Below are positions 4,023-51,898 of a stretch of 64,000 nt of DNA, in pieces (positions within the stretch are counted from its first letter, which is position 1; each line of letters begins with the position of its first letter). Location: NCBI GenBank assembly GCA_033763455.1, contig JANRKO010000039.1, positions 128,001-192,000 of the forward strand. The letters run 5' to 3'. A program made the position numbers and the translations under genes. The DNA comes from Polyangiaceae bacterium. Its GTDB lineage: Bacteria > Myxococcota_A > Polyangia > Polyangiales > Polyangiaceae. The notes under the pieces were generated by a model. The model was not told the origin of the DNA and made no database searches. It worked only from the letters and a program-made list of their open reading frames with translations.

Positions 4023-4085
4023 GACACCCGTTCCAAACATTCCCGAAACATAAGGGAGGCGAGAGTTCCGACACATTCCCGAAAC
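4023..4085 (+). promoter_or_regulatory. Phased direct-repeat boxes GACAC-N6-CAAAC-N6-GAAAC (4023-4049) and GACAC-N6-GAAAC (4070-4085)
   Basis: 11-bp periodic pentamers just upstream of the guanidine operon; the same box recurs at the other nitrogen loci. Confidence 0.6.
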
Positions 4086-4101
4086 CGGAGGTCTCGTCAT
4101 T

Positions 4102-5190
4102 ATGTTCAGTCGCCGAAGCTGGCTATCCGCCGTATGCGCTCTACCCCTCGCTCTCATTGGCTGCCAGAAGAGTGAAGCACCCGCTCCCCAGGTAACGCCC
4201 GAAGCCGCCAAAGCAGAGGCCGCGGTGAGTCCGGCGAAAGCTGAAGCGAAACCGGAAGCGCCGGCCCCGACGAAGGGCAAGCCGCTCGCTATTGCTTACA
4301 GCGACTGGCCCGGTTGGGTGGCCTGGGAAATTGGGATCCAAAAAGGCTGGTTCAAAGAAGCTGGCGTTGAGGTGGATTTTAAGTGGTTTGAATACGTACC
4401 TTCTATGGAGGCCTTCTCCGCCGGAAAAGTCGATGCCGTGACGATGACTAATGGCGACGCTTTGGTGACAGGTTCAAGCGGTGCGCCAAGTGTTGCGATT
4501 CTGATCAACGATTACAGTAACGGCAACGATATGGTGGTGGCCAAGCCCGGCATCAACAAACCAGCTGATTTGAAGGGAAAAAAGGTTGGCGTTGAAGTCG
4601 GATTTGTAAGCCACCTTTTGCTCCTCAACGCGCTCAAAGCGGGCGGCCTCACCGAAAAGGACATCAAGATCGTCAATGTTCCCACGGATCAAACTCCGCA
4701 AACCCTAAAGTCCGGTTCGGTGGATGCGATCGTTGCGTGGCAGCCGAACAGCGGTGCCGCTCTCAAAGAGGTGCCCTCCGCCAAGGCTGTGTTCACAAGT
4801 GCCAACGTGCCCGGCCTCATTTACGACGTGCTCAGTGTTTCCCCCAAGAGCCTCACCGAACGACGTGAAGATTGGAAGAAGGTGGTCGGGGTATGGATGC
4901 GCATTGCAGATTTCGTGACCGATCCGAAAAATGCCGACGAAGCCGCCAAGATTATGAGCGCTCGGGTGGGCCTCAAGCCTGAAGAATACAAGCCCCTAAT
5001 GAAGGGCACATTCTTCTTGAACCTTGCAGGCAATCAGAAGCACTTCGCCAAAGGCGATACGCTCGAATCCATCTATAATTCCACTGAGGTGGTTAACAAA
5101 TTCCAAGTGGAAAACAAGGTCTACAAGCAAGCCGCTGTGATCGAACCGTACCTCGATCGCTCCCTCGTGGATGAACTCGCAAAGAAGTGA
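4102..5190 (+). CDS. ABC transporter substrate-binding lipoprotein, NitT/TauT family, probably guanidine
   Basis: Lipobox [22 protein letters not shown]; first gene of an operon ending in a guanidine hydrolase. Confidence 0.85.
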
Positions 5191-5225
5191 ACCAGAGCGC
5201 GCTGAATCCTGAAACCTAAGAGTAG

Positions 5226-6362
5226 ATGAGAGTGGCACGAACCGGGCTGTTTGCCGTCCGCAAGGAACTCCCCACACGGGCGCGTTTGGTCCTGGTAACG
5301 CTCGCGTTCGTGTTGCCGCTCGCCGTATGGAGCTTCGTTAGCTACGTGCCTTGGGTTTGGCACCCGCTGGTGTTGGTAGAGCATGCCGGCGACTCCAAGG
5401 TGGCAGGAACCTATGACTACTTGGAGGCGGGCCAACTCGTCGAAAAAGAGGCGTTCGTCGGCCGCAACCAAGAGCTTGCAAGGGCGGGCAAAAAGCTCGC
5501 ACAGGGCTCGCCGGCAAACCCCATCTACTTGCCCGCCCCGCACGAGGTTGCCCGCGCGTTCTATACCGCCTTCACAACGGAACCCGAGCGTACAGGCGAC
5601 AAGTGGCTCCATGAGAGCCTTTGGCACAGCTGCAAGATCATCTTCGCGGGTTTCTTCTATGCGGCAATCTTGGGCGTTCCTCTCGGCATTCTGTGTGGGA
5701 CCTTTGGCTTTTTCGCCAAGTTATTCGAGCCCTTCGTGGATTTTGTGCGCTACATGCCAGCGCCGGTATTCGGAGCGCTGGCAGTGGCCGTAGTGGGCCT
5801 TGAAGACGAACCCAAGATCGCGATTATCTTCATCGGTACGTTCTTTCAAATGGTGTTGGTGGTTTCAAACACGACGCGCCAGCTGGATATTGCGCTGTTG
5901 GAAGCCGCGCAAACACTGGGCGCCAAAAACCGACAGCTTTTGATGCGGGTGGTGGTGCCGGGGATCTTGCCTCGCCTGTATCAAGATATGCGGATCTTGA
6001 TCGGATGGGCATGGACGTATCTGGTAGTTGCTGAGCTCATTGGTGAAAAATCCGGCATTAGCGCATTCCTTTATCAGCAACAGCGCTACCGCCACTTCGA
6101 CAACGTCTACGCGTCCATCATCATGATTGGCCTTATTGGCCTTCTCACCGATCAGTTGCTCGCCTTTGTCGGCGGGTTCCTCTTTCCCTGGGAAGGAGAA
6201 GGTCAAGGCCTCTCGCGCTGGATCAAGAATCTGCGCGGGCGTCGTGCTGCTCGCGATTTAGCCAGCCCGAGGACCCAGAGCACAAGCGCTAGCCTTGCAA
6301 CAGTTGTCGGCTCCCAAGCTATTTCGCTCACGGGTTCGACGCACACAAAAGAGTCCCCATGA
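5226..6362 (+). CDS. ABC transporter permease (NitT/TauT family)
   Basis: EAAQTLGA loop, WTYLVVAE, multiple TM segments. Confidence 0.9.
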
Positions 6363-7264
6363 CCCTCGATGCATCCGCTGCCATGAGCACTGACGATCGC
6401 CTCGCCCTGCCCGATTACAGGGACCAATCCCCTGAAGTTGCCGCCTATTTTCGCGAAATCAGGCAACGCCCAGTGGTCATGAGCGTGGAGCAGCTCTCGC
6501 GCCACTTCGAGAGCAGCCGTGGCACTATCACCGCCCTTTCAGATATCAACTACGACGTCCGCAAACGTGAGTTCATCTCCGTCATTGGGCCCTCGGGCTG
6601 CGGCAAATCCACGCTCATTCGTATCCTTGCGGGGTTGGATTACCCTTCCGAAGGCACCGTGCTTCTGGATGGCAAGCCCGTGCATGCTCCCGGAGCGGAC
6701 CGCGGCATGGTGTTCCAGGGCTACACGCTTTTCCCCTGGCTCACGGTCCGTAAGAACGTGGCCTTTGGTTTGCGCATGAAGGGCATGAAAGGTAGCGAAG
6801 TGGAAAAGCAGGTAGATCACTGGCTAGAGGTGGTTGGCCTCACTCGCTTTGAACGCCATTATCCGCATCAGCTCTCTGGCGGTATGAAGCAACGCGTTGC
6901 CATCGCGCGAGCACTCGCCAATGGGCCCCGCATCTTGCTGATGGATGAACCTTTTGGCGCCCTGGATGCCCAAACCCGCGCCAGCATGCAGGCTCATCTG
7001 CTTCAGATCTGGCAGGACGTTGACGTTACTATCCTGTTCATTACGCACGATTTGGACGAGGCCGTTTACCTCTCCGATCGCATCGTGGTGCTCGGCGCCC
7101 ACCCTGGCCACATCCGCGAGATCATCGAGGTGAATGTGCCGCGGCCGCGCTCGCCATCGCAGTTCCTTACTGGGCATTTCCTCGCCACAAAAAAGCGACT
7201 AGAGGAGCTCATCCACCCCGCCCGCCCTGCCCACGCTCCCAACCACGAAGACCTCGAGAACTGA
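6359..7264 (+). CDS. ABC transporter ATP-binding protein (NitT/TauT family)
   Basis: [32 protein letters not shown] overlap with the permease. Confidence 0.95.
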
Positions 7265-7265
7265 T

Positions 7266-8423
7266 ATGTCTTTCTACCTGCGCCACGCACCGGGCCGAAG
7301 AAACCACAACCGCACGCTACCGGACGTCACCCAGTTCAACGGCTACAAAGCTCAAGATTCGGAAGCTCTCTTACCCACGACGGAGTGGGAGTCCGAGTGC
7401 CGGCGCGGCCAGGAGCTCGGCCTCATGCCAGCCGACTCAATTGAAGACAAGCGCGAGATCAGCTGCTTCCAACGGGGAGAGCTGCCGCACTGGTCGGGCA
7501 TCAATACGTTTCTCAAGGCTCCCTACGTCGAAGATGTGCGCAAGGTCGGCGAGTACGATGTCGCGATTCTTGGGGCGCCTTTTGACGTGGGCACCACCTA
7601 CCGCTCTGGCACCCGCTTTGGACCCCAGGGCATTCGCCGCATCTCTTCCCTTTACACGCCGTACAGCTTTGAGATGGGCATCGACCTCAGGGAAAGCCTC
7701 AAGATCTGCGATTTAGGGGACATCTATTGCCCCGCCAACATCACCAAATCACACGATCAGATCAGCAAAGGTGTGGCCCATGTGCTTTCGCACGGCACGT
7801 TGCCCATCATCTTAGGTGGGGATCACTCCATCGGTTACCCAACGGCCCGCGGCATCGCTCAATGCATCGAAGGCAATGTGGGCATTATTCATCTCGATCG
7901 CCATGTCGATACTCAAGAGAAAGACATGGACGAGATCATGCACACCTGCCCGTGGTTCCACGCCACCAACATTCCCAATTGCCCTCCTCAGAACTTAGTG
8001 CAGCTCGGCATCGGCGGCTGGCAGTGCCCCCGCCCCGGCGTAAAACACGGCCGCTCCATGCGCACCACCATCCTCACGGTGGACGACATCGAAAGCATCG
8101 GCATCGAGAAGACCCTCGAAATCGCGCTAGAAACAGCCTGGAAGGGCGCAAGCGCGGTGTTCCTGTCGCTGGATATCGACTGCGTGGATGCGGGCTTCGT
8201 GCCGGGCACTGGGTGGCCGGAGCCGGGTGGGTTTTTGCCACGCGAGGTTCTCGCTCTTTTGCGGGGCGTTGCCAAAGAAGGCATCGCTGGCATGGAAGTG
8301 GTCGAAGTGGCGCCCCCTTATGACATCTCGGATATCACTTCGCTCTTGGCCGTTCGTGCCATCTGCGATGTGCTCGGAGCCATGGTGCAAAACGATCGCA
8401 TCGGTGGTCGTCTCAAGGCTTGA
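7266..8423 (+). CDS. gdmH: Guanidine hydrolase (arginase/ureohydrolase family)
   Basis: GGDHS, DRHVD, DIDCVD plus RGELPH..GINTFLKAPY, MHTCPWFHATN, GIGGWQ, GTGWPEPGG, closely matching recalled cyanobacterial GdmH (Sll1077). Confidence 0.85.
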   Translation: MSFYLRHAPGRRNHNRTLPDVTQFNGYKAQDSEALLPTTEWESECRRGQELGLMPADSIEDKREISCFQRGELPHWSGINTFLKAPYVEDVRKVGEYDVAILGAPFDVGTTYRSGTRFGPQGIRRISSLYTPYSFEMGIDLRESLKICDLGDIYCPANITKSHDQISKGVAHVLSHGTLPIILGGDHSIGYPTARGIAQCIEGNVGIIHLDRHVDTQEKDMDEIMHTCPWFHATNIPNCPPQNLVQLGIGGWQCPRPGVKHGRSMRTTILTVDDIESIGIEKTLEIALETAWKGASAVFLSLDIDCVDAGFVPGTGWPEPGGFLPREVLALLRGVAKEGIAGMEVVEVAPPYDISDITSLLAVRAICDVLGAMVQNDRIGGRLKA

Positions 8424-10306
8424 GCCACTCAGTCGAAGTGTTCGAGGAACACACGGGAGAGCCAAGTGCCACGGGCCCAGCATTTCTATTGCTGGGCGAC
8501 CTGGGTGCAGCCGCGCCTGAGCTTGAGGTCGTCCGGGAGCGGACGGCCAAAGTGCTTGGCTTTGCCCCCGCGCTCGTGACTGGATATTTGCCGACGCGCT
8601 CCGAGGCACGAGCTGGCTTTGGGGCATGGGAGGCCGATCCACTAAAGAACCCCGTGATTTTAGCGTTGTCGAAGTTGGCAACGGCGGGGCACTCCGAAGT
8701 TTACATTTTGCCGGTGCGCCCGGATCTCGGTATTACCGAAAAACAGATCATCACCGAAGCAGTCCGTGAAACGCAGCGTACGTTTCCGAACGTGCGGGTG
8801 CGTTACGACTCGGTGGAGCCCTGCCACCCGCTCTTGCTTTCGGCCTACTTGGAAAGCGCCGCGCTAGCACTACACCGGCTAACGCCTTCGGGCCCAGGGC
8901 AGCTCGGGGTCCTTTTGGTATCGAGCGGTGAAGACGACGCCGTGCCACGCGCACACGCCTACCAACTCATGCGCCTGCTTTGGGAACAGCTCGGCGTTGC
9001 CAAGGGGGAAGTGGCTTTCCTTCGCCACAACAGAACCCCAGTGCCCGAACAGCTTGATGCCTGTTTGGCAACGGGCCTCTCGTGGGTGGTGGTGCCACAA
9101 TTTCTATTTCCTACCGAGCACTTTGAGTTTCTGCAAACCATCTACACGGATTTCGTTCGCCGTCACGAAATTGAAAACGATTGGGCGCTCTCAGAGCCCA
9201 TCGCACAACACCCGGCGTTCACGGCCTGGCTGGAGCAACGCCTCGTACGGATCTGGCAGGAAAATCGGGACAAGACGGACGCGCGCCAACCCACCGCGAA
9301 ACCTCGCAGCCCGGAGGCAAGCCTCCTACACAGGCCCGATGGAGCGATCGCCATGCGACCCGACACCAAGATGGAGTCCGGTTATCCCGGTGCCTGGCTC
9401 GCTGAGATTCGCGACCCCTCCGCGCTCACCCAGCTGACACGTGGCGCCGGAATCGAAGGAGAACGCATCTTCGTTAAGGTGACCTGGCACGGTTACGCAC
9501 AGGGCACGTACACCGATCCGGTAGCTCTCGAAACCTTACTAAAAGCACTTCCTGGCCGCGCCGTTATTCTGGAGGGACACACCTCCAGTCGCAATCAAGG
9601 TGGCGCCGAATGGGACTGGGAAAACGAAAGCCGCGCCCATCGCGCCTGGATCGTAGAACAAGATCGTGAATACCTTGAACGCACTGGGATCTTAGAAGTC
9701 TTAGAGCGCTACGGTGCCACCTATCTCAACCTCACGGAAACCTGGTGGGATGGTGCGTGCGCACCTGCCGCCGAAGTGCACGCGCTTTTGAAGGCTCAAG
9801 GCGTGGAGCTAAAGTTTTCAGAGCTCGCCGAGTTTGTCCCTCGGGTTTTCCTGGAAAACCGAGGCGCGCCCTTCATTAGCTATGCGCGTTTCAAAGGCCC
9901 CACCCGGCTCTCGCTAGCGAACCTCTTTGGCCTCTTACCGCCGCCGTTACGAACGGCGTGGCACGGCCCTAACATTACCTATTTTGCGCAGGTTTGCTGC
10001 GATCTTGCCAAGCTTTACGGTGCCCTGTTCACTACGTACGGCCTCGTGGAGTCGCTCAACGTCGCTGTGCGTTGGGATAGAAAAGGGCTCTACCGCAGCC
10101 GTTGGGGCAATTACGACCTCGTGCCACGGCCTGGGCTCGTCACTCTAGCCGCAGGTTTTGCGGGCGCCGATGTATTGGGCAGCCGCTTGCAAGGGCAAGA
10201 CGTACGGAAGAGTGCGTTCTTCGACGTCGTGCGCCAAGAGCTTGGCTACAACGCCGACCTTGAAACTCTGCCGGTCAATGCAGATCTGGTGCGTCGATTT
10301 GTATAG
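8420..10306 (+). CDS. Fusion of tandem CbiX-like chelatase-fold domains and a DUF362-like domain
   Basis: RLLWEQLG..EVAFL...VVVPQFLF..EPIAQHP (CbiX-like); IFVKVTW...YTDP..LETLL..VILEG and K..TRLSLANLFGLLP (DUF362-like); TTGA overlap with gdmH. Confidence 0.65.
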   Translation: MSHSVEVFEEHTGEPSATGPAFLLLGDLGAAAPELEVVRERTAKVLGFAPALVTGYLPTRSEARAGFGAWEADPLKNPVILALSKLATAGHSEVYILPVRPDLGITEKQIITEAVRETQRTFPNVRVRYDSVEPCHPLLLSAYLESAALALHRLTPSGPGQLGVLLVSSGEDDAVPRAHAYQLMRLLWEQLGVAKGEVAFLRHNRTPVPEQLDACLATGLSWVVVPQFLFPTEHFEFLQTIYTDFVRRHEIENDWALSEPIAQHPAFTAWLEQRLVRIWQENRDKTDARQPTAKPRSPEASLLHRPDGAIAMRPDTKMESGYPGAWLAEIRDPSALTQLTRGAGIEGERIFVKVTWHGYAQGTYTDPVALETLLKALPGRAVILEGHTSSRNQGGAEWDWENESRAHRAWIVEQDREYLERTGILEVLERYGATYLNLTETWWDGACAPAAEVHALLKAQGVELKFSELAEFVPRVFLENRGAPFISYARFKGPTRLSLANLFGLLPPPLRTAWHGPNITYFAQVCCDLAKLYGALFTTYGLVESLNVAVRWDRKGLYRSRWGNYDLVPRPGLVTLAAGFAGADVLGSRLQGQDVRKSAFFDVVRQELGYNADLETLPVNADLVRRFV

Positions 10307-13044: not shown

Positions 13045-13179
13045 AACGCGAACTCTCGGGCTTCCCGGCATTTGGCGCTGTTTTTCGGTACGAGAGGTAC
13101 TTCGCATGACAAGTAACTTGGCCTTCAAGCGGGCGCACACTTGCGTTTGCGGGCTGTTTCGACAACCGTGCAAGTCACT

Positions 13180-39518: not shown

Positions 39519-39524
39519 GGCACC

Positions 39525-41149: not shown

Positions 41150-41205
41150 GCGGCGGCCCCCAAATCCTGAACCTCGTATTTTTTTTCACCACTTAGGAGG
41201 ACCCA

Positions 41206-42805: not shown

Positions 42806-42808
42806 GGC

Positions 42809-43741
42809 TCATTCCCCTAAGTAAACTTCGATCACCTTTGGGTCGCTTTGCACCTGACTCATGGAGCCTTCCGCTAATACACGCCCTTCGTGAAGCACAG
42901 TGACGGTATCGCCCGCGATGCTCCGCACAAAGTCCATGTCGTGCTCAACGACCACCACGGTGTGCTTTCCAGCCAGAGATTTAAGCAACTCCGCAGTGCG
43001 TTCTACCTCTTGGTGGCTCATCCCAGCGATGGGCTCATCCACCAACAACAAGCGTGGATCGAGCACCAGGAGCATCCCAATTTCTAACCACTGCTTCTGA
43101 CCATGGGAGAGAAGCCCGGCCAAAACGTCTCGCTCAGCAGACAACCCTACGAGCTGCAACACCTCATCCAGCTTGTCTTGCCAAGGCCCACGGCGAGGGG
43201 CAAATAAGGTCTGAAAGACGCCCTTTTTGGCCTTGAGCGCGATCTCTAGGTTTTCAACCACGGAGTGCTGCCCAAAGACGGTAGGACGCTGAAACTTGCG
43301 ACCAATCCCTCTGTGAACGATCTCGTGCTCGGCAAGCGTGGTCAGATCTGTCGCCTCGCCAACAAAGAAGACGCTCCCCTCATCTGGTCTCGTCTTGCCT
43401 GTGATGACGTCCATTAGCGTGCTCTTCCCAGCGCCGTTGGGCCCGATGATACACCGGAGCTCCCCATCGTCGAAGATGAGCGTCAAGTCGGTGAGTGCGC
43501 GAAAGCCATCAAAGCTTACGCTCACGTTGTCCACACAGAGCAACGCATTGGCGCGGTGCTGCCGTACGGCTGCTTGGCGCTCGGTGCTTACGGTATTCGC
43601 ATTTCTGAGCGGCCAGAGCGACTGCCTTTCCTTTTTAACTGGTAACGACGGAGCCTGCGAGGGCAACTTTCGTTCCGCTTCCGCCGACTGGACTGATAGC
43701 TCGGACGACTCAAACAGTGCTTTTTTCTCCACTGCACTCAT
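42809..43741 (-). CDS. urtD: Urea ABC transporter ATPase UrtD, with an approximately 60-aa N-terminal extension
   Basis: VSFDGFRAL, GIGRKFQ.P, LSHGQKQWLEIGM; ATGA overlap with urtC. Confidence 0.93.
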   Translation of the reverse strand: MSAVEKKALFESSELSVQSAEAERKLPSQAPSLPVKKERQSLWPLRNANTVSTERQAAVRQHRANALLCVDNVSVSFDGFRALTDLTLIFDDGELRCIIGPNGAGKSTLMDVITGKTRPDEGSVFFVGEATDLTTLAEHEIVHRGIGRKFQRPTVFGQHSVVENLEIALKAKKGVFQTLFAPRRGPWQDKLDEVLQLVGLSAERDVLAGLLSHGQKQWLEIGMLLVLDPRLLLVDEPIAGMSHQEVERTAELLKSLAGKHTVVVVEHDMDFVRSIAGDTVTVLHEGRVLAEGSMSQVQSDPKVIEVYLGE

Positions 43742-44850
43742 GCCGCTGCCACCTTCTTCTTGCGCCGAGCCATGACCCCACCGAGGAGCCCTTTGGGCAA
43801 GAACAGCGTGACCAAGATGAACAACATACCGAGGAAATACAGCCAAATCTCCGGGAAAGAGCCCGTGAGCCAACTCTTGGCACCATTGACAACTGCCGCA
43901 CCGAGCGCCGCCCCCACCAGCGTAGAGCGCCCACCCACGGCGACCCAAATGGCCATCTCAATCGAATTGGCCGGTTGCATCTCGCCTGGGTTGATGATGC
44001 CAACTTGGGGCACGTACAAGGCTCCTGCCAAGCCGCACACCACCGCTGAAAGCGTCCAGGCAAAGAGCTTGTAGGTCAGTGGGTTGTAGCCCGAAAGCGC
44101 CACCTTAGATTCATCGTCTCGCACGGCCCTCAACACCATCCCAGCCTTGCTGGTGACGATATATCGGAAGATCAGATACATCACCAACAGCGCCACCACT
44201 GAGATCACGTAGAGCGCTACCTTCGTGCTCTCTGCTGCGAGCGGCCAACCGTAGATACGCTTAAAATCGGTAAGCCCGTTGTTGCCACCGAACCCCGTTT
44301 CGTTGCGAAAGAAGAGCAGCATGAACGCAAACGTCATGGCCTGCGTAATAATCGAGAAATAGACCCCCCGAATGCGAGACCTGAATGCAAAATACCCGAA
44401 CACGAATGCCAAAACGCCAGGCACCAGGAGCGCCATCGCTATCGCAAAGAAGAAGTTGTCAAAACCTAGCCAAAACCAAGGCAATTCCTTCCAATCAAGG
44501 AACACCATGAAATCTGGCAAGCGGCTGCGGTACACACCTTGGCCTGCTATCTCCAGCATCAGGTGCATGCCCATTGCGTAGCCTCCGAGCGCAAAGAACA
44601 CGCCGTGCCCAAGGCTGAGAATTCCCGTAAACCCCCAAATGAGATCCATGGCCAATGCAACAAGTGCGTAGCAGGCAAACTTCCCAAGGATAGTTACGAT
44701 GTACGTAGGTATGTGAAGCGGCGAGGCTTCCGAGAGCTCTAGATTCAGCACGGGTACTAACACTGCTAGAAGGAGCAGCACTCCGAGCCAGATCGAGAGC
44801 CCACGGCGTGAATGAATGCGGTTGAGCACGCTCAGCATTTTCTGCGTCAC
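43738..44850 (-). CDS. urtC: Urea ABC transporter permease UrtC
   Basis: LPDFM, GVYFSIITQA, GGNNGLTDF, PQVGIINP. Confidence 0.95.
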   Translation of the reverse strand: MTQKMLSVLNRIHSRRGLSIWLGVLLLLAVLVPVLNLELSEASPLHIPTYIVTILGKFACYALVALAMDLIWGFTGILSLGHGVFFALGGYAMGMHLMLEIAGQGVYRSRLPDFMVFLDWKELPWFWLGFDNFFFAIAMALLVPGVLAFVFGYFAFRSRIRGVYFSIITQAMTFAFMLLFFRNETGFGGNNGLTDFKRIYGWPLAAESTKVALYVISVVALLVMYLIFRYIVTSKAGMVLRAVRDDESKVALSGYNPLTYKLFAWTLSAVVCGLAGALYVPQVGIINPGEMQPANSIEMAIWVAVGGRSTLVGAALGAAVVNGAKSWLTGSFPEIWLYFLGMLFILVTLFLPKGLLGGVMARRKKKVAAA

Positions 44851-46454
44851 GCCTCCGCGGCGCGCCCCTTGAGAGCAAATATTCCTTGGGGGCGCTTCTG
44901 AATGAATAGGATCAATAGCACTAAGAGCAATATCTTACCCAAGACCGCCCCAGCCACGGGTTCGAGAAACTTGGATGTAAGGCCGAGCCCCAACGCGCCA
45001 CAAACCGTGCCCAACACACTGCCCACACCACCCACCACCACCACCATGAAAGAATCCACGATGAAGCTTTGGCCGAGCTCGGGCCCCACATTACCAAGCT
45101 GAGAAAGCGCCACACCCCCGAGCCCCGCGACCCCAGAACCAAGCCCAAATGTCCACATATCCACCCGGCGCGTGGAGATCCCAAGCGCTGCCGCCATAGC
45201 TCGATTTTGAGTAACAGCGCGCACCTTGAGCCCAAGGCTTGTTCGCTGGAGCAACAGATATACAAAGGTTACCACCACCAACACAAAGGCAATCACCAGT
45301 AGCCGACTGTAGGGTAACACCACAGTGGGTAGAAGCTCGAAGCCTCCACTCAACCATTCTGGGTTTGCCACCGTTACGTTTTGCGCACCAAAGATGAGCC
45401 TCACCGTTTGAATAAGAAGTAAGCTAAGGCCAAAGGTTGCAAGTAAGGTCTCTAGCGGGCGCCCGTAGAGAAAACGAATCACGGTGCGCTCCAATATTAT
45501 GCCAACAAGCGTGCACACGGCGAAGGCCACGGGCACCGCGAGGATCAGGTAATACTCCTTGAGCCCCGGCGCGGATTTTGCGAGCACGTTTTGCACAACA
45601 AACGTAGAGTAGGCTCCTATCATCAGCATTTCGCCGTGCGCCATGTTGATCACTCGCATCAGCCCAAAAGTTATCGCCAACCCGAGAGCGGCGAGCAATA
45701 GCACGCTTCCTAGACTCAAGCCATAAAAGAGGTTGCCTACCAAATTGGTGAAGAATAGCTTCGTTTCGATGCGGCTGAGTGCTTCCTTGGCTGCCGCACG
45801 CACGGACGCGTCCGACTCGTTAAATACTCCACCCCCTCCTTTGAGTGTTAACGCTTCAAACGTGGAACGCATTCGCACATCTCCTCCGAGCACCTTCACG
45901 GCATTGAGCCGTTTCTTCGCGTCGGAGCTCACCAGGTTGAGCTTGGCGAGGCCCTGCAAAACCAGCGCGCGAATTTCTGCATCTTGCTCCGCGCGGCTCG
46001 CCTGTTCGAGAACGGGCTCCATTCCACTGGGTGGATCTTTAGCAATCTCCTGCGCGGCGTCGTACCGCACCGAACGATCCGGCGAGAGCAACCGGAGCCG
46101 AGCGAGTGCGGTAGAAAGTGCTCGCCTGGCCCTATTGTTAAGAACTGGAGCCCGCGTAAAGCTCGGGGGTTGCGCGGCTTCGAACGTTCTGGCGTCCAGC
46201 CACCGATGGTTGATTCGCACATAAACTCTCCCCTCTCCCACTTTGAGCTCTTCCCGTTCAAGCGCCAAAAGTAACTGAAAAGCCTTAGGATCGGCGGACA
46301 CTCCTAGCTCGGTAACCACCGCCGCAACGTCGGGATCTGCACCCGCCAACTGTTCCACCACCTGCGGCAAATCAGCCCCGAAGGCGCTGTGCGTGAAGCA
46401 ACATTGCGCGACGAGCAGTTGCACCAAGATCGCCAGGAGTCGTAGAAAATGCAT
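44847..46454 (-). CDS. urtB: Urea ABC transporter permease UrtB (long form with periplasmic HEAT-like domain)
   Basis: INMAHGE, RPLETLLAT, DSFMVVV.GG; ATG with GGAGG RBS. Confidence 0.95.
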   Translation of the reverse strand: MHFLRLLAILVQLLVAQCCFTHSAFGADLPQVVEQLAGADPDVAAVVTELGVSADPKAFQLLLALEREELKVGEGRVYVRINHRWLDARTFEAAQPPSFTRAPVLNNRARRALSTALARLRLLSPDRSVRYDAAQEIAKDPPSGMEPVLEQASRAEQDAEIRALVLQGLAKLNLVSSDAKKRLNAVKVLGGDVRMRSTFEALTLKGGGGVFNESDASVRAAAKEALSRIETKLFFTNLVGNLFYGLSLGSVLLLAALGLAITFGLMRVINMAHGEMLMIGAYSTFVVQNVLAKSAPGLKEYYLILAVPVAFAVCTLVGIILERTVIRFLYGRPLETLLATFGLSLLLIQTVRLIFGAQNVTVANPEWLSGGFELLPTVVLPYSRLLVIAFVLVVVTFVYLLLQRTSLGLKVRAVTQNRAMAAALGISTRRVDMWTFGLGSGVAGLGGVALSQLGNVGPELGQSFIVDSFMVVVVGGVGSVLGTVCGALGLGLTSKFLEPVAGAVLGKILLLVLLILFIQKRPQGIFALKGRAAEA

Positions 46455-46569
46455 ATTCCTCCAAAGTGCACAGGGTTCCACCCGTTCACCCGTGGGTGCG
46501 CTCGATGTTCGCGCGCACGCCACGGATGGGGCCTCTCAATGGGCGAGGCGAGAAGCGTCGTGGGGACGC

Positions 46570-47946
46570 TTACATGGGCTTGTATTTCGCGCTCGTGCAG
46601 TTGCCGCAAACCCAAGGGAACGACCAATCTGCGACTTTGTCTTTACTGTCAGGCACGTATTTGCTCCAAGGCTCCGCACGAATCGGCCCTTCCGTCTTCC
46701 AGACGATTTCAAACTGGCCGTCCGCACGGACCTCTGCGATATAAACAGGCTTGATCAGATGGTGGTTCTTACCATCCATCACCGCATCGAACCCTGAAGG
46801 CGCCTTCACGGTTTGCCCGCCTACAGCCTGTCGAACGGCGTTCACATCCGTAGTGCCAGCCTGCGCCACAGCCTGCGCCCACATCTTGATACCGATGTAT
46901 GTGGCCTCCATAGGATCATTGGTAACCCGCTTGTCTCCATCCGGAAGGTTCTTAGCCTTCACGTAATCCTTCCAAGACTGGATGAACGCCTTATTTTCAG
47001 GGTTATCAATCGACATGAAGTAATTCCACGCTGCCAGGTGGCCCACGAGCGGCTTGGTATCGATACCGCGCAACTCCTCTTCACCGACTGAGAAGGCAAC
47101 CACGGGAATGTCTTCAGCCTTGAGGCCCTGATTAGCGAGCTCCTTGTAGAAGGGAACGTTGGAGTCGCCGTTGATAGTGGAGATAACTGCTGTGCGTTTG
47201 CCCGCCGCGAACTTTTTGATGTCCGCCACGATTGTTTGGTAGTCGCTGTGACCAAACGGTGTGTACTTCTCCATGATGTCTTCATCCGCAATCTTCTGGT
47301 CTTTCAGGAAGTAGCGGAGGATCTTGTTGGTGGTGCGCGGGTACACATAATCTGTGCCCAGAAGTACAAAGCGCTTCGCACCGCCACCTTTGGCACTCAT
47401 GAGGTATTCGAGAGCCGGGATCGCCTGTTGATTCGGCGCCGCTCCGGTGTAAAAAACGTTGAACGAGGATTCTTCTCCTTCGTACTGAACCGGATAGAAC
47501 AGAAGACCGTTCAACTCTTCAAACACGGGGAGCACGCTCTTTCGGGACACACTCGTCCAGCAGCCAAACACCACCGCCACTTTCTTGTTGAGCAACTCCC
47601 GAGCTTTCTCGGCAAATAGCGGCCAATTCGAAGCGGGATCGACCACCACTGGCTCAAGCTGCCGGCCGAGCACACCACCTTTGGCGTTGATCTGTTCGAT
47701 GGTCATCAACGCCACATCCTTAAGGGATGTTTCGCTAATCGCCATCGTGCCGGATAGGGAGTGCAAGATGCCAACTTTGATGGGCCCCTTGTCGTCGGCC
47801 ACGGGGGCGGGAGCCGGGGCAGCTTCAGCCGGTGCCGCCGAGGCGCTTGCAGCGGCCTGAGTGGGGGTAGAGTCGGCAGCGGGCCCTTTACAGCCCAGAC
47901 TCATCATCCCCGAAAACGCTAGTGTTAAGAGCAGCCTTCTTTTCAT
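46570..47946 (-). CDS. urtA: Urea ABC transporter substrate-binding protein UrtA
   Basis: HSLSGTMAISE, CWTSVSRKSV, YPVQYEG, DYVYPRTTN. Confidence 0.97.
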   Translation of the reverse strand: MKRRLLLTLAFSGMMSLGCKGPAADSTPTQAAASASAAPAEAAPAPAPVADDKGPIKVGILHSLSGTMAISETSLKDVALMTIEQINAKGGVLGRQLEPVVVDPASNWPLFAEKARELLNKKVAVVFGCWTSVSRKSVLPVFEELNGLLFYPVQYEGEESSFNVFYTGAAPNQQAIPALEYLMSAKGGGAKRFVLLGTDYVYPRTTNKILRYFLKDQKIADEDIMEKYTPFGHSDYQTIVADIKKFAAGKRTAVISTINGDSNVPFYKELANQGLKAEDIPVVAFSVGEEELRGIDTKPLVGHLAAWNYFMSIDNPENKAFIQSWKDYVKAKNLPDGDKRVTNDPMEATYIGIKMWAQAVAQAGTTDVNAVRQAVGGQTVKAPSGFDAVMDGKNHHLIKPVYIAEVRADGQFEIVWKTEGPIRAEPWSKYVPDSKDKVADWSFPWVCGNCTSAKYKPM

Positions 47947-48124: not shown

Positions 48125-48148
48125 GTTTCTCAATCGTTTCGAAACGAT
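48125..48148 (-). promoter_or_regulatory. GAAAC-N6-GAAAC box overlapping the perfect palindrome ATCGTTTCGAAACGAT, upstream of urtA
   Basis: Box at 48125-48140 (minus strand), palindrome at 48133-48148. Confidence 0.6.
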
Positions 48149-48193: not shown

Positions 48194-49924
48194 CTATTCC
48201 GGCCGGCCAGCTCTAAATGCACGCCAGCCGCCAAATTCACTGATATTGCGTGCGCCTTCCAGCGCGTAGCTTTCGCAGTTGAAACCCTTCACCTGGGTAC
48301 CGTCCGATAGTGTGGTAACGCCGATCGTCATAGGCTCCGGCACCTGTGCCACGAAGGACCCAAAAGCCTCTGCGCTGAGCTCCCACACTTCGACTTCGAT
48401 GGCGTGCCCCGCCTTCCCTGGTGTGCGCACCAGCCCCGGCTTAGGCGGCGTGGTTGCCAAGGCAAAAAGCTGATAATCTGAACTTGTTTTGCAAGTTTGT
48501 ATGCGGCGTGCTCCCCGCGACGTGAGCTCGTGATTCAACGGTTGCCCGCTCAGGTGCGCCCCCGCAACGGCCAACCACACCGCGCCAGTGCTCCGCTCTC
48601 GCTTAGAGCCTTCGCCCAAGAAACGCTCGCCCAATTCGAGGAGCCGAGGCTCAGCAAATGCAGGGCCCATGAGCGTTACCCCGAACGGCAGACCGTTCTT
48701 TCGAAACCCAGCTGGGATGGCGAGCGCTGACAGATCCAGCAAATTCACGAAGTTGGTATAAGTACCAAGGCGCGCGTTCAGGGTTATCGGATCTGAAAGG
48801 ACCTCCGCCACCCGATAGTGCGTGGGCGCCGTAGGCAACAAGAGAGCATCAAAATGGGCCAAAATGGGCGCAATCTGCAGCTTCAATTCGCTCAGGCGGT
48901 GTTGAGCCCGAAAGGTGTCCACCGCCGTATGGCGATGCCCGCCGAGCAATATTTCGTGCACCACAGAGTCCATACCGGCCGGCGCACTTTTTAAGAACGA
49001 TTCCAACGGAGCTAACCGCTCGGCCACCCATGGCCCAGAATACAGGAGACGAGCCGCTTCAAGAAAAGGCTCTAAACTGAAGCTCTCAATCTTCCAACCG
49101 AGGCCCTGCGCTTGCTTAACCGCAGCAGCAAACAGCTCCGCGCTTTCCGAGTCTCCGAAAAATTCCAAATCCTCGGTTCGTGGCACGGCAAGGCGCGCTA
49201 GCCCATCCCCCAGGCCCACACAAAAAGAAGCCGGGCGGGCAAATGGATCTAGCGGAACGACACCACTTACGAGGTTAAGTAGGAGCTTTGCATCCGCCAC
49301 GGAGTGTGCGAACAAAGAAACACAATCCAGCGAGCGGCAGGCTGGCACCACACCGCGCGTGCTCACCAAACCTCGCGTCGGCTTTAGCCCCACCAAGTTA
49401 TTGAAGGATGCAGGCACTCGCCCGGACCCAGCTGTGTCCGTACCTAGCGAAAATGTGGACAAACCTAGCGCCACGCTCACCGCGGAGCCCGAACTTGAAC
49501 CCCCGGAAATGTAGTCCGAATTGAACACCGAGCGACACTCGCCGTAAGGGCTGCGCGTGCCGACAAGGCCAGTAGCGAACTGATCCATATTGGTTTTCCC
49601 GACCACGATGGCACCTGCCTGGCAAAGGCGTTCAACCACGGGGGCATTTTCGGTCGGGAAGTATTTGAAGCTTGGGCAAGCAGCCGTAGTTGGCAGGCCA
49701 CGCACATCAATGTTGTCTTTGACGGAAAACGGGACGCCATAAAGGGGCAGCGATGGGTCCCTTTGGGTGAGCGCCTCCAACATAGACTCCAGCGAGAAGC
49801 TGGAGATGAACGCGTTTTGAGCAGAAGCGGCCGCAACACCTTCGGCAACCTCTTCAAGGGCCTCGCGAGGACTTTTGTTCCCGGAGCGGTACGACCCAAC
49901 TAGCTCCGATATCTTGGTTTTCAT
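48194..49924 (-). CDS. atzF: Allophanate hydrolase
   Basis: Amidase signature VKDNID, KTNMDQFATGLVGTRSPYG, GGSSSGS, GTDTAGSGRVPA; C-terminal domain GAHLSGQPLN. Confidence 0.95.
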   Translation of the reverse strand: MKTKISELVGSYRSGNKSPREALEEVAEGVAAASAQNAFISSFSLESMLEALTQRDPSLPLYGVPFSVKDNIDVRGLPTTAACPSFKYFPTENAPVVERLCQAGAIVVGKTNMDQFATGLVGTRSPYGECRSVFNSDYISGGSSSGSAVSVALGLSTFSLGTDTAGSGRVPASFNNLVGLKPTRGLVSTRGVVPACRSLDCVSLFAHSVADAKLLLNLVSGVVPLDPFARPASFCVGLGDGLARLAVPRTEDLEFFGDSESAELFAAAVKQAQGLGWKIESFSLEPFLEAARLLYSGPWVAERLAPLESFLKSAPAGMDSVVHEILLGGHRHTAVDTFRAQHRLSELKLQIAPILAHFDALLLPTAPTHYRVAEVLSDPITLNARLGTYTNFVNLLDLSALAIPAGFRKNGLPFGVTLMGPAFAEPRLLELGERFLGEGSKRERSTGAVWLAVAGAHLSGQPLNHELTSRGARRIQTCKTSSDYQLFALATTPPKPGLVRTPGKAGHAIEVEVWELSAEAFGSFVAQVPEPMTIGVTTLSDGTQVKGFNCESYALEGARNISEFGGWRAFRAGRPE

Positions 49925-50007
49925 GGACGTTTCTTCTTGGGGAGTTCTAGCAGAGCGGCGTCACCATCAAAATCGTAATCGTGCTTTCGAGAACAGTTTA
50001 TCGCCAG

Positions 50008-50023
50008 GAAAACGCCCGGAAAC
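50008..50023 (+). promoter_or_regulatory. GAAAA-N6-GAAAC box between divergent atzF and trtA
   Basis: One mismatch to the shared box. Confidence 0.45.
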
Positions 50024-50067
50024 GATCAGAGAGAGAACCTCTTGCCAAGCCAAGACTCCGCACTCTC

Positions 50068-50736
50068 ATGCCCACCACCCTGATCCAAGCAGAGCCGGAA
50101 CCCATCGCGGTTAATTGGGCGCGTACCGCGCTTGTCATCATCGACATGCAGCGGGATTTCTTGGAGAAGGGCGGCTTTGGCGAGTCACTCGGCAACGATG
50201 TATCGCTCCTTGGTCGCGCTATTTTGCCGTGCAAAGCACTGCTGACGGCAGCACGCCAGCACGAGGTTTTTGTCATTCATACTCGCGAAGGCCACCGCCC
50301 AGACCTCTCCGACGCTCCGCGCGCCAAAGTGGAGCGCGGTGCACCTAGCCTACGCATCGGGGCACCTGGCCCTATGGGGCGCATTCTTGTGCGCGGTGAG
50401 CCGGGGCACGACATCATTGCCGAGCTTGCTCCCGTGCCGGGCGAACCGGTGATCGACAAACCGGGGAAAGGCGCTTTTTACGCGACGGACCTGGCCGCCA
50501 TCCTCTCCAACCGTGGCATTGATTCTTTGATCGTTTGTGGAGTTACTACCGAAGTGTGTGTGCACACCACCGTACGCGAGGCCAATGATCGCGGATTTCG
50601 TTGCATCGTCCCGAGCGACTGCTGCGGCTCATACTTTCCAGAATTTCATGAAGTGGCCTTGCGGATGATCAAGGCACAGGGCGGTATTTTTGGTTGGGTG
50701 ACGGATTCGAAAAGCGTACTCGCGGCCCTCAAGTGA
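50068..50736 (+). CDS. trtA: Triuret hydrolase-like cysteine hydrolase
   Basis: Isochorismatase-fold triad (IDMQ, DKPGKG, EVC); GGFGESLGND, TTEVC, SYFP, GGIFG match recalled TrtA rather than BiuH. Confidence 0.8.
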   Translation: MPTTLIQAEPEPIAVNWARTALVIIDMQRDFLEKGGFGESLGNDVSLLGRAILPCKALLTAARQHEVFVIHTREGHRPDLSDAPRAKVERGAPSLRIGAPGPMGRILVRGEPGHDIIAELAPVPGEPVIDKPGKGAFYATDLAAILSNRGIDSLIVCGVTTEVCVHTTVREANDRGFRCIVPSDCCGSYFPEFHEVALRMIKAQGGIFGWVTDSKSVLAALK

Positions 50737-50767
50737 CACCGAGGCACTGAAGGCGATTCCCACTTCA

Positions 50768-51133
50768 CTATTCGTCCGCCAGGAACTTCACGGATCGCTC
50801 CCAAACAATGAGCACCAAGCAACCCTCCTCACTCCAAACCGAATGCGAGCTCCCAGGCGCGTTCACTACGAACGTTCCTGCATCATATCGACCACTTTCA
50901 TCTTCTTGAGCGCCTTCCAACACCCAGATGTGCTCGTAGCCCGGATGCCGGTGCGCCGGAATTCTAGCTCCCGGTGCGTAACGCAAGAGTGCCGAAGAGC
51001 TACCCGTTTGGGCATCCTCGTAGATCACTGACATCTCAACGCCATCTCGGAAAGGATGGAACCCACCACGAGCCAGAATGGACGCCTGATCACAACGGAG
51101 CGTTAGCGGCCTACCGCGAGAAGAATCGCTCAA
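50768..51133 (-). CDS. ChrR-like cupin protein
   Basis: LLRYAPGARIPAH.HPGYEHIWVLEG...GSSH; TTGA overlap with biuH. Confidence 0.8.
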   Translation of the reverse strand: MSDSSRGRPLTLRCDQASILARGGFHPFRDGVEMSVIYEDAQTGSSSALLRYAPGARIPAHRHPGYEHIWVLEGAQEDESGRYDAGTFVVNAPGSSHSVWSEEGCLVLIVWERSVKFLADE

Positions 51134-51825
51134 AGCAGCACCGAAAGCAGGCTTTCGGAGCTGGAAACGGCTCCAAAAACCCCATTTTGCATGGTTACCA
51201 TCTTAAGAGCGGCGTGATGATTGCCAACATCGGTAGCTGCGCAACAGTCAGAAAGGATCAGGCACTCGTAGCCTCGATCATTGGCTTCACGCATGGTGGT
51301 GTGCACGCACACATCCGTGGTGATACCGGTCAAGACGAGATTCCGAATGCCTTTTTGGCGCAGCAGCATGTCGAGATCTGTTGCGCAGAAAGATCCTTTG
51401 CCCGGCTTATCGATGATGGGCTCCCCCGCTAACGGCTTGAGCTCGGGGATAATATCCCAACCGGGCTCGCCTCGCACCAACACCCTCCCGCATGGCCCGA
51501 GGTCTCCAATGCCGGTTTGGCCCGGGCCGCCGTCCTGCAAACGGCGGGACCTCCAGCGCTTGTTCGCGGGCAAATCTGACAGATCCGCTCGGTGCCCTTC
51601 GCGCGTGTGGAGCACGAGAAACCCTCCGGCTCGAAACGCCTCCAACACCCGAGCGATGGGTGCAATGCACGCTCGTGTGAGCGAAATATCGTAGCCGAGA
51701 AGATCGATGTAGCCGCCTTTGCCGCAGAAGTCGGTCTGCATATCGATCACGATAAGAGCCGTATTTTCGGGTCTAAGGTCTCCGTCAAACGGCCAAGCGT
51801 ACGGATCTGCGGGAACATATCGCAT
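51130..51825 (-). CDS. biuH: Biuret hydrolase
   Basis: ADPY.WP, IDMQTDFCGKGGY, LPANKRWRS, ITTDVC, KM..MQ.GVFG match recalled BiuH. Confidence 0.88.
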   Translation of the reverse strand: MRYVPADPYAWPFDGDLRPENTALIVIDMQTDFCGKGGYIDLLGYDISLTRACIAPIARVLEAFRAGGFLVLHTREGHRADLSDLPANKRWRSRRLQDGGPGQTGIGDLGPCGRVLVRGEPGWDIIPELKPLAGEPIIDKPGKGSFCATDLDMLLRQKGIRNLVLTGITTDVCVHTTMREANDRGYECLILSDCCAATDVGNHHAALKMVTMQNGVFGAVSSSESLLSVLL

Positions 51826-51882
51826 CGAATACCTCACGTATTAAGGGGGGCCATCTTATCGAGCTTATCTCAGCGCTTGACC

Positions 51883-51898
51883 GTTTCGCTTTTGTTTC
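51883..51898 (-). promoter_or_regulatory. GAAAC-N6-GAAAC box between divergent biuH and the porin gene
   Basis: GTTTCgcttttGTTTC on the plus strand. Confidence 0.6.

What the first reader, a model, noticed from the sequence alone, without database searches (positions are those of the whole stretch)
4023..51898. A GlnR-box-like direct repeat marks every nitrogen-scavenging promoter region: candidate undescribed nitrogen regulon
Seen: a pentamer pair with exact 6-nt spacing occurs before the guanidine operon (4023-4049, three phased pentamers, and 4070-4085), ureD (36277-36292) and urtA (48125-48140, minus). It also occurs between atzF and trtA (50008-50023, one mismatch) and between biuH and the porin (51883-51898, minus). 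The consensus is GA(A/C)AC-N6-GAAAC. Known: 11-bp-period direct repeats are typical of OmpR-type regulators, and the actinobacterial GlnR box is gTnAc-N6-GaAAc. Inference: one regulator, not encoded in this window, controls these distant loci in an apparently non-actinobacterial genome, in place of NtrC/sigma54 or riboswitch control.
Basis: partly seen in the sequence, partly recalled or inferred. Interest (0 to 1): 0.85.

Follow-up and report, generated by a model that had tools for sequence, protein, structure and literature searches.

The report
Shared direct-repeat operator of nitrogen-scavenging operons
A short DNA signal, two five-base words one helical turn apart, sits in front of every urea, guanidine and biuret utilisation operon in this stretch and in front of the urea transporter of its nearest relatives, so one still unknown regulator probably switches them together.

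Summary
GA(A/C)AC-N6-GAAAC occurs exactly 5 times in the 64 kb window against 0.31 expected (0 of 100 shuffles reach 5). Only the 6-nt spacer is enriched: 5 hits, against 0-1 for each other spacer from 0 to 23. Exact or one-mismatch boxes lie in all 5 promoter regions of nitrogen-scavenging operons: guanidine hydrolase, urease, urea ABC transporter, atzF/trtA, and biuH/porin.

Among 77 fetched urt loci, the exact box lies within 2 kb upstream of urtA only in the three with the most window-like UrtA (L001, L007, L014). N6 is again the enriched spacer there, but not in the other 77 loci.

I found no riboswitch, no sigma-54 promoter, no fixed -10 partner and no significant RNA fold.

Best reading: a DNA operator for one transcription factor, most likely an OmpR/PhoB-type winged-helix regulator binding head-to-tail. 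It resembles the actinobacterial GlnR box, but the host is a Gram-negative, Myxococcota-like bacterium.

Still open: the regulator's identity, activation versus repression, and whether the regulon is global nitrogen control or urea-specific. This is a new variant of a known kind.

The parts
4023..4049 (+). Distal box of the guanidine operon: three pentamers in 11-bp phase (GACAC, CAAAC, GAAAC). It ends 52 nt before the ATG of the substrate-binding lipoprotein gene at 4102.
   Evidence: Sequence; phase table; the N17 hit in the spacer scan.
4070..4085 (+). Proximal exact box of the guanidine operon (GACACATTCCCGAAAC). It ends 16 nt before ATG 4102 and directly abuts the GGAGG ribosome-binding site. 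Its last 13 nt repeat 4037-4049 exactly.
   Evidence: 13-nt direct repeat 4037-4049 / 4073-4085.
36277..36292 (+). Exact box before ureD. It lies 12 nt before ATG 36305 and 30 nt before the second in-frame ATG at 36323.
   Evidence: UreD domain.
48125..48148 (-). urtA box GAAAC-N6-GAAAC (48125-48140, minus). Its upstream pentamer is half of a perfect 16-bp palindrome ATCGTTTCGAAACGAT (48133-48148), so there is a third, inverted pentamer. It lies 178 nt before urtA ATG 47946 and 92 nt before a small upstream ORF.
50008..50023 (+). One-mismatch box (GAAAA-N6-GAAAC) in the divergent atzF/trtA region, 44 nt before trtA ATG 50068.
   Evidence: the frame was corrected.
51883..51909 (-). biuH/porin divergent region: three phased pentamers GACGC-N6-GAAAC-N6-GAAAC, and a 12-nt repeat at 22-bp spacing. 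It lies 57 nt before the likely biuH ATG 51825 and 45 nt before GTG 51837.
23714..23729 (+). It lies at or just upstream of the 5' end of an orphan histidine-kinase-like gene (22875-23732, minus), in the opposite orientation. It shares about 41 nt with the ureD box region.
   Evidence: HATPase_c domain.
4102..10306 (+). Guanidine operon: NMT1/SsuA-type binding lipoprotein, permease, ATPase, GdmH-like arginase-family hydrolase (7266-8423), and a 628-aa CbiX-domain protein.
36305..41841 (+). Urease operon, ureD to ureG. ureC, ureE, ureF and ureG were identified. The small ureA/B genes lie in 37178-37814 and were not annotated separately.
42113..47946 (-). urtABCDE urea ABC transporter operon.
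   Evidence: all five proteins score above the NCBIfam cut-offs. Start codon.
48194..53432 (.). Allophanate hydrolase atzF (48194-49924, minus), trtA-like cysteine hydrolase (50068-50736, plus), biuH (51130-51825, minus) and a porin (51960-53432, plus). These form two divergent promoter regions, each with a box.
   Evidence: Porin homologues sit next to urtA in relatives.
13145..13160 (-). Doubtful extra site GAAACAGCCCGCAAAC (one mismatch) at the annotated 5' end of an 867-aa ORF with no link to nitrogen. It may be chance.

Best explanation
The pentamer pairs are DNA operators for one sequence-specific transcription factor. That factor co-regulates a set of operons that release ammonia from urea-type compounds: guanidine uptake and hydrolysis, urease, the Urt urea transporter, triuret/biuret/allophanate hydrolases, and a porin.

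Two 5-bp words repeated in the same orientation exactly one helical turn apart (5+6+5) are the signature of a head-to-tail dimer of a winged-helix OmpR/PhoB-type response regulator. The third phased pentamers at the guanidine and biuH promoters would seat a further protomer.

I think the factor is an activator that substitutes for a missing -35 element at promoters with no sigma-70 consensus, as PhoB and actinobacterial GlnR do. The regulator is not encoded in the window.

Shown: the motif, its strict spacing, its restriction to these promoter regions, and its recurrence at urt promoters of the nearest relatives.

Inferred: that a protein binds it, the protein's family, the sign of regulation, and the signal (nitrogen limitation or urea-type substrates).

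My odds: a real shared operator, about 0.85. An OmpR/PhoB-type binder, about 0.55. An orthologue of actinobacterial GlnR, about 0.15.
For: - Enrichment: 5 exact matches against 0.31 expected, with 0 of 100 shuffles reaching 5.
- Spacing: N6 gives 5 hits; the 23 other spacers give 3 hits together.
- Location: none of the 5 exact hits lies inside a confidently called gene. Four lie in nitrogen promoter regions. With the one-mismatch trtA site, 5 of 5 nitrogen promoter regions carry a box, against 1 of 21 other intergenic regions (Fisher p 9e-5). With exact hits only it is 4 of 5 against 1 of 21 (p 1.6e-3). The region classes were defined after seeing the motif.
- Relatives: of 80 fetched loci, 4 hold an exact match. 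Of the 77 with a UrtA hit, the box lies within 2 kb upstream only in L001, L007 and L014. These are the three with the highest UrtA identity to the window (86.8, 85.1 and 83.9 %). It is absent from the other 74.
- Position in relatives: L001 has it 106 nt before the urtA ATG. L014 has it 50 nt before, together with an inverted GAAAT-N6-GAAAT pair. L007 has two boxes between an ECF sigma gene and the porin-urtA operon.
- Spacer control in relatives: in L001+L007+L014 (50.9 kb), N6 gives 4 hits against 2 in the 17 other spacers. In the other 77 loci (1.47 Mb), N6 gives 1 against about 3.3 per spacer.
- Tree: on a quick UrtA tree, the motif-bearing rows are the window's nearest neighbours, and 0 of 500 label shuffles cluster as well.
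- No sigma-70 consensus promoter overlaps the sites scanned. The ureD region was not scanned. This would fit activator dependence.
- The 5+6+5 head-to-tail layout and the GAAAC half-site match published GlnR boxes and the GlnR, PhoB and PmrA DNA complexes (PMC10704036 and PMC10235972, passages read).
Against: - No regulator has been identified. None is in the window, and none lies next to the urt loci of L001, L007, L014 or L025.
- Several boxes sit very close to start codons: 12 or 30 nt at ureD, and 16 nt at the proximal guanidine box, right against the ribosome-binding site. That is too close for a box overlapping the -35 element, and it fits a repressor or roadblock better.
- I found no consistent -10 element at a fixed distance. 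'GAGAnT'-like hexamers lie 8-11 nt downstream in 4 of 6 window sites, by eye only.
- Orientation is not constant. The box is reversed relative to the nearest gene at 23714 (window), in L014 and in L007.
- L025 (Polyangia) has the porin-urt operon but no box scoring 12 bits or more.
- The a-site has A, not T, at position 2, and most sites are single boxes.
- Conservation could be tested at the urt promoter only.
Confidence: 0.55

Rival explanations
1. The same boxes are operators of a repressor, of any family including an OmpR-type protein acting negatively. It would sit on the core promoter or the start of the transcript and be released under nitrogen limitation or by urea-type substrates. The logic would be that of AmtR in corynebacteria (role recalled), with a different site architecture.
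For: Boxes end 12 nt (ureD), 16 nt (proximal guanidine box), 44 nt (trtA) and 45-57 nt (biuH) before start codons. The proximal guanidine box lies between the distal box and the ribosome-binding site. Orientation is variable at 23714, in L014 and in L007, which a repressor tolerates more easily.
Against: No sigma-70-like promoter overlaps the sites scanned that a repressor would need to occlude. Same-orientation 11-bp repeats are best known from activating response regulators. At urtA and in L001 the box is about 100-180 nt from the start codon.
Confidence: 0.2
2. The motif acts in RNA, as a 5'-leader element such as a riboswitch, an ANTAR-type antiterminator target, or a protein-binding or SD-sequestering leader.
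For: In the window, all five nitrogen-operon boxes are in the sense orientation and close to start codons. In the guanidine leader, a predicted hairpin (4058-4098) holds the proximal box in its loop and pairs the GGAGG ribosome-binding site.
Against: No Rfam family matches these regions at gathering score or at E up to 5. Folds of the six leaders have z-scores from -1.3 to +1.2 and no common structure. A strict 11-nt repeat of an unpaired pentamer has no RNA precedent that I know of. Boxes are antisense to urtA in L014 and to the porin in L007.
Confidence: 0.05
3. GAAAC is the -35 element of an alternative (ECF-type) sigma factor promoter, or the 16-nt unit is a divergent -24/-12 promoter.
For: ECF -35 elements often read GGAAC or GAAAC (recalled). 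Two L007 boxes lie sense and immediately upstream of an ECF sigma gene. The 16-nt length equals that of a sigma-54 promoter.
Against: No shared -10-like word lies at a fixed 15-18 nt after GAAAC in the 10 sites aligned by eye. The paired upstream pentamer is not explained. The invariant GG/GC of sigma-54 promoters is absent, and no sigma-54-like site lies in the nitrogen promoter regions. The window's ECF sigma is not orthologous to the L007 one (19 % identity).
Confidence: 0.05
4. Chance, compositional bias, or relics of local duplication with no function.
For: The ureD and 23714 copies share about 41 nt, and the two guanidine copies share 13 nt, so some copies arose by duplication.
Against: See the shuffle and spacer controls. 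Flanks differ among the other sites. The motif recurs at urt promoters of three relatives whose intergenic sequence is otherwise unalignable.
Confidence: 0.03

Closest known systems
GlnR box of actinobacteria (OmpR/PhoB-family orphan response regulator GlnR)
   Same: Both have the 5+6+5 same-orientation repeat. The b-site GAAAC is identical to GaAAc. The a-site fits the looser Saccharopolyspora form t/gna/cAC. Both sit in front of urea and other nitrogen-scavenging genes. Extra phased sites occur at some promoters. (Consensus table and text of review PMC10704036; GlnR-DNA and GlnR-RNAP structures in PMC10235972, passages read.)
   Different: The host is a Gram-negative, Myxococcota-like bacterium, not an actinomycete. 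The a-site has A at position 2 in 8 of 8 window sites, where Streptomyces and Mycobacterium have T. Most sites are one box rather than a1-b1-a2-b2. Some boxes lie 12-16 nt from the start codon. No GlnR orthologue has been seen.
Pho box / PhoB and other OmpR/PhoB-family operators (OmpR, PhoP, PmrA, SaeR)
   Same: Direct repeats with a period of about 11 bp, bound head-to-tail. The box replaces a poor -35 element. (The head-to-tail comparison with PhoB and PmrA is stated in PMC10235972. The individual consensus sequences are recalled, not checked.)
   Different: The half-site sequence differs, and so does the physiological theme: nitrogen and urea compounds rather than phosphate, osmolarity or Mg2+.
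NtrC/sigma-54 control of urt and ure genes in Pseudomonadota
   Same: The target genes are the same (urtABCDE, ure).
   Different: No -24/-12 promoter lies in the window's nitrogen promoter regions. A strict TGGYAY-N5-TTGCH site lies within 500 nt upstream of the urtA hit in 5 of 73 fetched loci (L006, L021, L023, L036, L068) and in none of L001, L007 or L014. The contrast is real but weak.
Guanidine riboswitches (ykkC and mini-ykkC classes) in front of guanidine genes
   Same: They control guanidine transport and degradation genes.
   Different: No Rfam match occurs anywhere near the guanidine operon, even at E up to 5.

Membership tests
Actinobacterial GlnR box / GlnR regulon | Two 5-bp sites in the same orientation separated by 6 bp (11-bp period) | tested here: met
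   Sequence. The spacer scan shows that only N6 is enriched.
Actinobacterial GlnR box / GlnR regulon | b-site GaAAc | tested here: met
   GAAAC in 7 of 8 window sites and CAAAC in one. Consensus taken from PMC10704036.
Actinobacterial GlnR box / GlnR regulon | a-site gTnAc (T at position 2) | tested here: not met
   The a-sites are GACAC (4), GAAAC (2), CAAAC (1) and GAAAA (1), so A is at position 2 in 8 of 8. This fits only the looser S. erythraea form t/gna/cAC.
Actinobacterial GlnR box / GlnR regulon | Typical target carries two boxes (a1-b1-a2-b2, 22-bp unit) | tested here: not met
   The phase table shows two pentamers at 5 of the 7 boxes in window promoter regions and three at 2 of them (distal guanidine box, biuH). 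None has four.
Actinobacterial GlnR box / GlnR regulon | Sites upstream of core nitrogen genes (glnA, amtB-glnK, nitrate/nitrite genes) as well as ure and urt | not testable with these tools
   ure and urt are met.
Actinobacterial GlnR box / GlnR regulon | Bound by a GlnR orthologue (OmpR/PhoB-family orphan response regulator) | not testable with these tools
   No DNA-binding response regulator is in the window or beside the urt loci of L001, L007, L014 or L025. The source genome is not available.
Actinobacterial GlnR box / GlnR regulon | Host is an actinomycete | tested here: not met
   The window has a porin, a T6SS Hcp and DUF1552/DUF1592-type proteins. The nearest urt loci are Polyangiaceae and 'Proteobacteria' MAGs.
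Generic OmpR/PhoB-family operator | Same-orientation half-sites one helical turn apart, upstream of regulated genes | tested here: met
Generic OmpR/PhoB-family operator | Box overlaps or abuts the -35 region of a promoter with a weak -35 | tested here: inconclusive
   No sigma-70 consensus promoter overlaps the sites scanned, but there are no transcription start data. Distances to start codons range from 12 to 178 nt.
Sigma-54 / NtrC-dependent promoter | GG-N10-GC (-24/-12) element, TGGCAC-N5-TTGCW | tested here: not met
   No site with 8 or more of 11 matches lies in the five nitrogen promoter regions.
Known riboswitch or leader RNA (Rfam 15) | Covariance-model match in the leader | tested here: not met
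   Searches give only a 5_ureB_sRNA match inside ureC and two weak lncRNA chance hits elsewhere.
ECF sigma promoter | -35 GGAAC-like word with a conserved -10 word at a fixed spacing of about 16-17 nt | tested here: not met
   No common word follows GAAAC at any fixed offset in the window or relatives' sites (inspection).

The most novel reading that the evidence does not exclude
A lineage of Gram-negative, Myxococcota-related bacteria runs its nitrogen-scavenging genes through an OmpR/PhoB-type master regulator with a GlnR-like box, instead of NtrC/sigma-54 or riboswitches. The targets include the recently recognised Ni-dependent guanidine hydrolase and the triuret/biuret pathway. This would be either an independent invention of the actinobacterial solution or an ancient transfer of it. 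The box in front of an orphan histidine-kinase-like gene (23714) would then mark the sensory input of the circuit.
Probability: 0.3. Interest if true: 0.75.

Novelty: new variant of a known kind. Interest (0 to 1): 0.6.

Why it matters
Nitrogen control is textbook knowledge for only a few phyla: NtrC/sigma-54, NtcA, TnrA/GlnR(Bsu), AmtR and actinobacterial GlnR. For Myxococcota-like and many uncultured Gram-negative lineages, I found no description in the four library searches aimed at it.

A compact, strictly spaced box gives a testable handle. It could be used to predict the regulon genome-wide and to fish out the regulator. It also links guanidine, urea, biuret and triuret use, all relevant to fertiliser turnover, into one circuit. 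If the binder proves to be GlnR-like, that would be a striking case of convergence or transfer of a master regulator between Gram-positive and Gram-negative phyla.

Tried and rejected
- Riboswitch or known RNA: the whole window was searched against Rfam at gathering score and at E up to 5. Nothing lies at the nitrogen leaders.
- Common RNA structure: six leaders were folded, with z-scores from -1.3 to +1.2.
- Sigma-54 promoter: scan, none in the nitrogen regions.
- Sigma-70 consensus promoters: none overlaps the boxes in 3800-4150 or 47900-52100.
- ECF promoter reading: no fixed -10 partner. The window's ECF sigma is not orthologous to the one beside the L007 boxes.
- Regulator by neighbourhood: Pfam annotation of 27 ORFs from L001, L007, L014 and L025 found kinases, an EAL response regulator and an ECF sigma factor, but no OmpR-type DNA-binding regulator.
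- Exact 4-mer dyads shared by 4 or more of the 5 regions: none. The motif is degenerate in its first pentamer.
- Sigma-54 contrast in relatives: only 5 of 73 loci carry a strict site, so this is a weak argument.
- Phylum assignment: the two protein-atlas look-ups gave conflicting, thin taxon labels, Acidobacteriota for the CbiX protein and Pseudomonadota for the 1399-aa protein. The phylum stays unresolved beyond 'Gram-negative, nearest urt loci Myxococcota'.
- ORF 3295-4053, which would overlap the distal guanidine box: rejected as a gene because it lacks the codon-position GC pattern of real genes here.
- Literature: searches for GlnR with Myxococcus, for myxobacteria with urea and nitrogen regulation, for Sorangium with NtcA, for 'GAAAC-N6-GAAAC', and for GlnR homologues outside actinobacteria (listings only) returned nothing describing this motif.
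- The careful UrtA tree did not finish. Only the quick tree was used.

Full report
**What is in the window.** Family scans and PDB sequence matches give five transcription units that release ammonia from urea-type compounds.
- 4102-10306 (+): a binding lipoprotein, a permease and an ATPase, then an arginase-family hydrolase that matches PDB 7esr/7oi1 at E 3e-150 and 9fek at 1.4e-160, then a 628-aa CbiX-domain protein. I recall 7oi1 as the Synechocystis guanidine hydrolase; the PDB label shown is 'agmatinase 2'.
- 36305-41841 (+): the ureD to ureG operon.
- 47946-42113 (-): urtABCDE, all five above the NCBIfam cut-offs.
- Divergent pair: atzF, allophanate hydrolase (49924-48194, -), and a trtA-like cysteine hydrolase (50068-50736, +). 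The best PDB matches of the latter, 6xix/6xj4, score above the biuret hydrolases.
- Divergent pair: biuH (51825-51130, -; above cut-off) and a porin (51960-53432, +).

The rest of the window carries a T6SS Hcp, DUF1552/DUF1592-type proteins, an ECF sigma/FecR pair, toxin-antitoxin genes and large proteins of no known family. This is a Gram-negative genome, not an actinobacterium.

**The observation.** All six coordinates are correct.
- The exact pattern GAMAC-N6-GAAAC has 5 matches against 0.31 expected, with 0 of 100 dinucleotide-preserving shuffles reaching 5.
- The cleanest control is internal. With the spacer varied from 0 to 23 nt, N6 gives 5 hits. The other 23 spacers give 3 hits together, and one of those (N17) is the guanidine site read across two periods.
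- An unbiased dyad count found 14 4-mer/gap/4-mer dyads present in 3 of the 5 nitrogen promoter regions and in 0 of 21 other intergenic regions. Twelve of the 14 are facets of this motif. No exact dyad is shared by 4 or more regions, because the first pentamer is degenerate.
- Allowing the one-mismatch trtA site, 5 of 5 nitrogen promoter regions carry a box, against 1 of 21 others (Fisher p 9e-5). With exact matches only it is 4 of 5 against 1 of 21 (p 1.6e-3). These classes were drawn after seeing the motif, so the p-values are indicative only.

**Relatives.** It returned only distant loci, at 48-60 % UrtB identity. The top hits are Polyangiaceae, Myxococcales and Polyangia MAGs, a Binatia MAG and an unclassified 'Proteobacteria' MAG. 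The bulk are Pseudomonas and Enterobacterales. The source genome itself was not among them.
- The exact box occurs in 4 of 80 loci.
- Among the 77 loci with a UrtA hit, it lies within 2 kb upstream of urtA only in L001, L007 and L014. These are the three with the highest UrtA identity to the window (86.8, 85.1 and 83.9 %). It is absent from the other 74.
- In L001 it is sense, 106 nt before the urtA ATG.
- In L014 it is 50 nt before the ATG, on the opposite strand, abutting a GAAAT-N6-GAAAT pair on the sense strand.
- In L007 two boxes lie between an ECF sigma gene and the porin-urtA operon, and a third exact match lies inside the porin gene.
- The spacer control repeats. In L001+L007+L014, N6 gives 4 hits against 2 in the 17 other spacers. 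In the other 77 loci (1.47 Mb), N6 gives 1 against about 3.3 per spacer.
- On a quick UrtA tree, these rows are the window's nearest neighbours. The careful search did not finish.
- L025 (Polyangia) lacks the box.
- Promoters other than urt could not be tested. In the relatives, ureD and biuH follow urtE directly or lie at a contig edge.

**What it is not.**
- No Rfam family matches the leaders, even at E up to 5.
- The leaders have no common or significant fold.
- No sigma-54-type site lies in the nitrogen promoter regions.
- No sigma-70 consensus promoter overlaps the boxes in the two stretches scanned.
- No fixed -10 partner follows GAAAC, as an ECF promoter would need (inspection).
- Flanks differ between sites except for two local duplications: 13 nt within the guanidine region, and about 41 nt between the ureD and 23714 copies. 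So it is not a dispersed repeat element.

**Most likely mechanism.** Two same-orientation pentamers exactly one helical turn apart are the binding geometry of head-to-tail winged-helix dimers of the OmpR/PhoB family.
- The GlnR-DNA and GlnR-RNAP structures show DNA-binding domains bound head-to-tail around the -35 element (PMC10235972, passages).
- I therefore read the boxes as operators of one OmpR/PhoB-type regulator, encoded elsewhere, that activates promoters lacking a -35 element.

This is inference. Three points count against a simple activator model. First, boxes lie 12-30 nt from the ureD start codon and 16 nt from the guanidine-operon start codon. Second, orientation is variable at three sites. 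Third, most sites are single boxes. A repressor reading is the main rival (0.2).

Whether the regulon is global nitrogen control or a urea/guanidine/biuret catabolon cannot be decided without glnA, amtB and glnK promoters.

**Membership.** It works like a GlnR box, but I do not file it as one.
- The T at a-site position 2 is absent in 8 of 8 window sites.
- The two-box architecture is absent.
- The host is not an actinomycete.
- The defining protein could not be examined.

**Novelty and score.** Four library searches aimed at nitrogen regulation in myxobacteria or at the motif itself, plus one on GlnR homologues outside actinobacteria, returned nothing describing it (listings only). It is a new variant of a known kind of element. 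It is well supported as a cis-element, with an unidentified binder. Interest 0.6.

**Left unchecked.**
- No second scan was available for the guanidine, trtA or biuH promoters.
- The phylum of the source remains unresolved.

Noticed in passing
window 47976-48032 (minus): An 18-codon upstream ORF (MKIQILGSIGASTKGAGC) with a strong GGAGGAG ribosome-binding site. It lies between the urtA box and urtA, and its stop is 30 nt before the urtA ATG at 47946. It could be a leader peptide or a small protein. No counterpart was evident in the urtA upstream sequence of L001 or L014.
   Followed up: partly
window 4058-4098 (+): A predicted hairpin (arms CGAGAGTTCCG / CGGAGGTCTCG) holds the proximal guanidine box in its loop and pairs the GGAGG ribosome-binding site of the first gene. 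The fold z-score of the whole leader is only -1.3.
   Followed up: partly
window 8420-10306 (+): A 628-aa protein with a CbiX chelatase domain directly follows, and overlaps by 4 nt, the guanidine-hydrolase-like gene. It has no PDB sequence match. Its nearest atlas clusters are 'sirohydrochlorin chelatase family' proteins of about 560 aa. It is a candidate metal-delivery partner for the hydrolase.
   Followed up: partly
window 23705-23745 vs 36268-36308: About 41 nt are nearly identical between the ureD leader and the region upstream of an orphan histidine-kinase-like gene: the box plus CAAACCTCAsCCAT. The ureD copy ends in the ATG start codon, whereas the other copy reads ATA. This looks like a duplicated promoter/start region.
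   Followed up: partly
window 22875-23732 (minus): An orphan, short histidine-kinase-like protein. It has an HATPase_c domain only, with no Pfam HisKA, sensor or transmembrane domain. A box lies at its 5' end and no response regulator is nearby.
   Followed up: no
window 2348-4101: About 1.75 kb upstream of the guanidine operon has no family hit. Its long ORFs (3111-3824 minus, 3295-4053 plus) lack the codon-position GC pattern of real genes in this window.
   Followed up: partly
window 37968-38250 (minus): An Rfam 5_ureB_sRNA match (104.7 bits) lies antisense inside the ureC coding sequence. It most likely reflects conservation of the urease gene from which the family was built (my inference), not a demonstrated sRNA here.
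   Followed up: no
L025 7060-8445, L007 6975-8420, L014 6147-7703; window 51960-53432: Homologues of the window's porin (26-34 % identity) sit directly upstream of urtA in L025 and L007, and divergent from urtA in L014. This suggests a urea-related outer-membrane channel that travels with urt. In the window it is paired with biuH instead.
   Followed up: partly
window 44847-46523 and 42809-43948 (minus): UrtB carries an N-terminal extension of about 260 aa and UrtD one of about 135 aa before the conserved domains. The UrtB extension is at least partly shared with Pseudomonas homologues: query residues from about 4 onward align in several loci.
   Followed up: no
L014 7704-8360: The 658-nt region between the porin-like gene and urtA holds many further GAAAC/GTTTC and GTTAC pentamers besides the exact box. 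These include an inverted arrangement, GAAAT-N6-GAAAT followed by GTTTC-N6-GTTTC.
   Followed up: no
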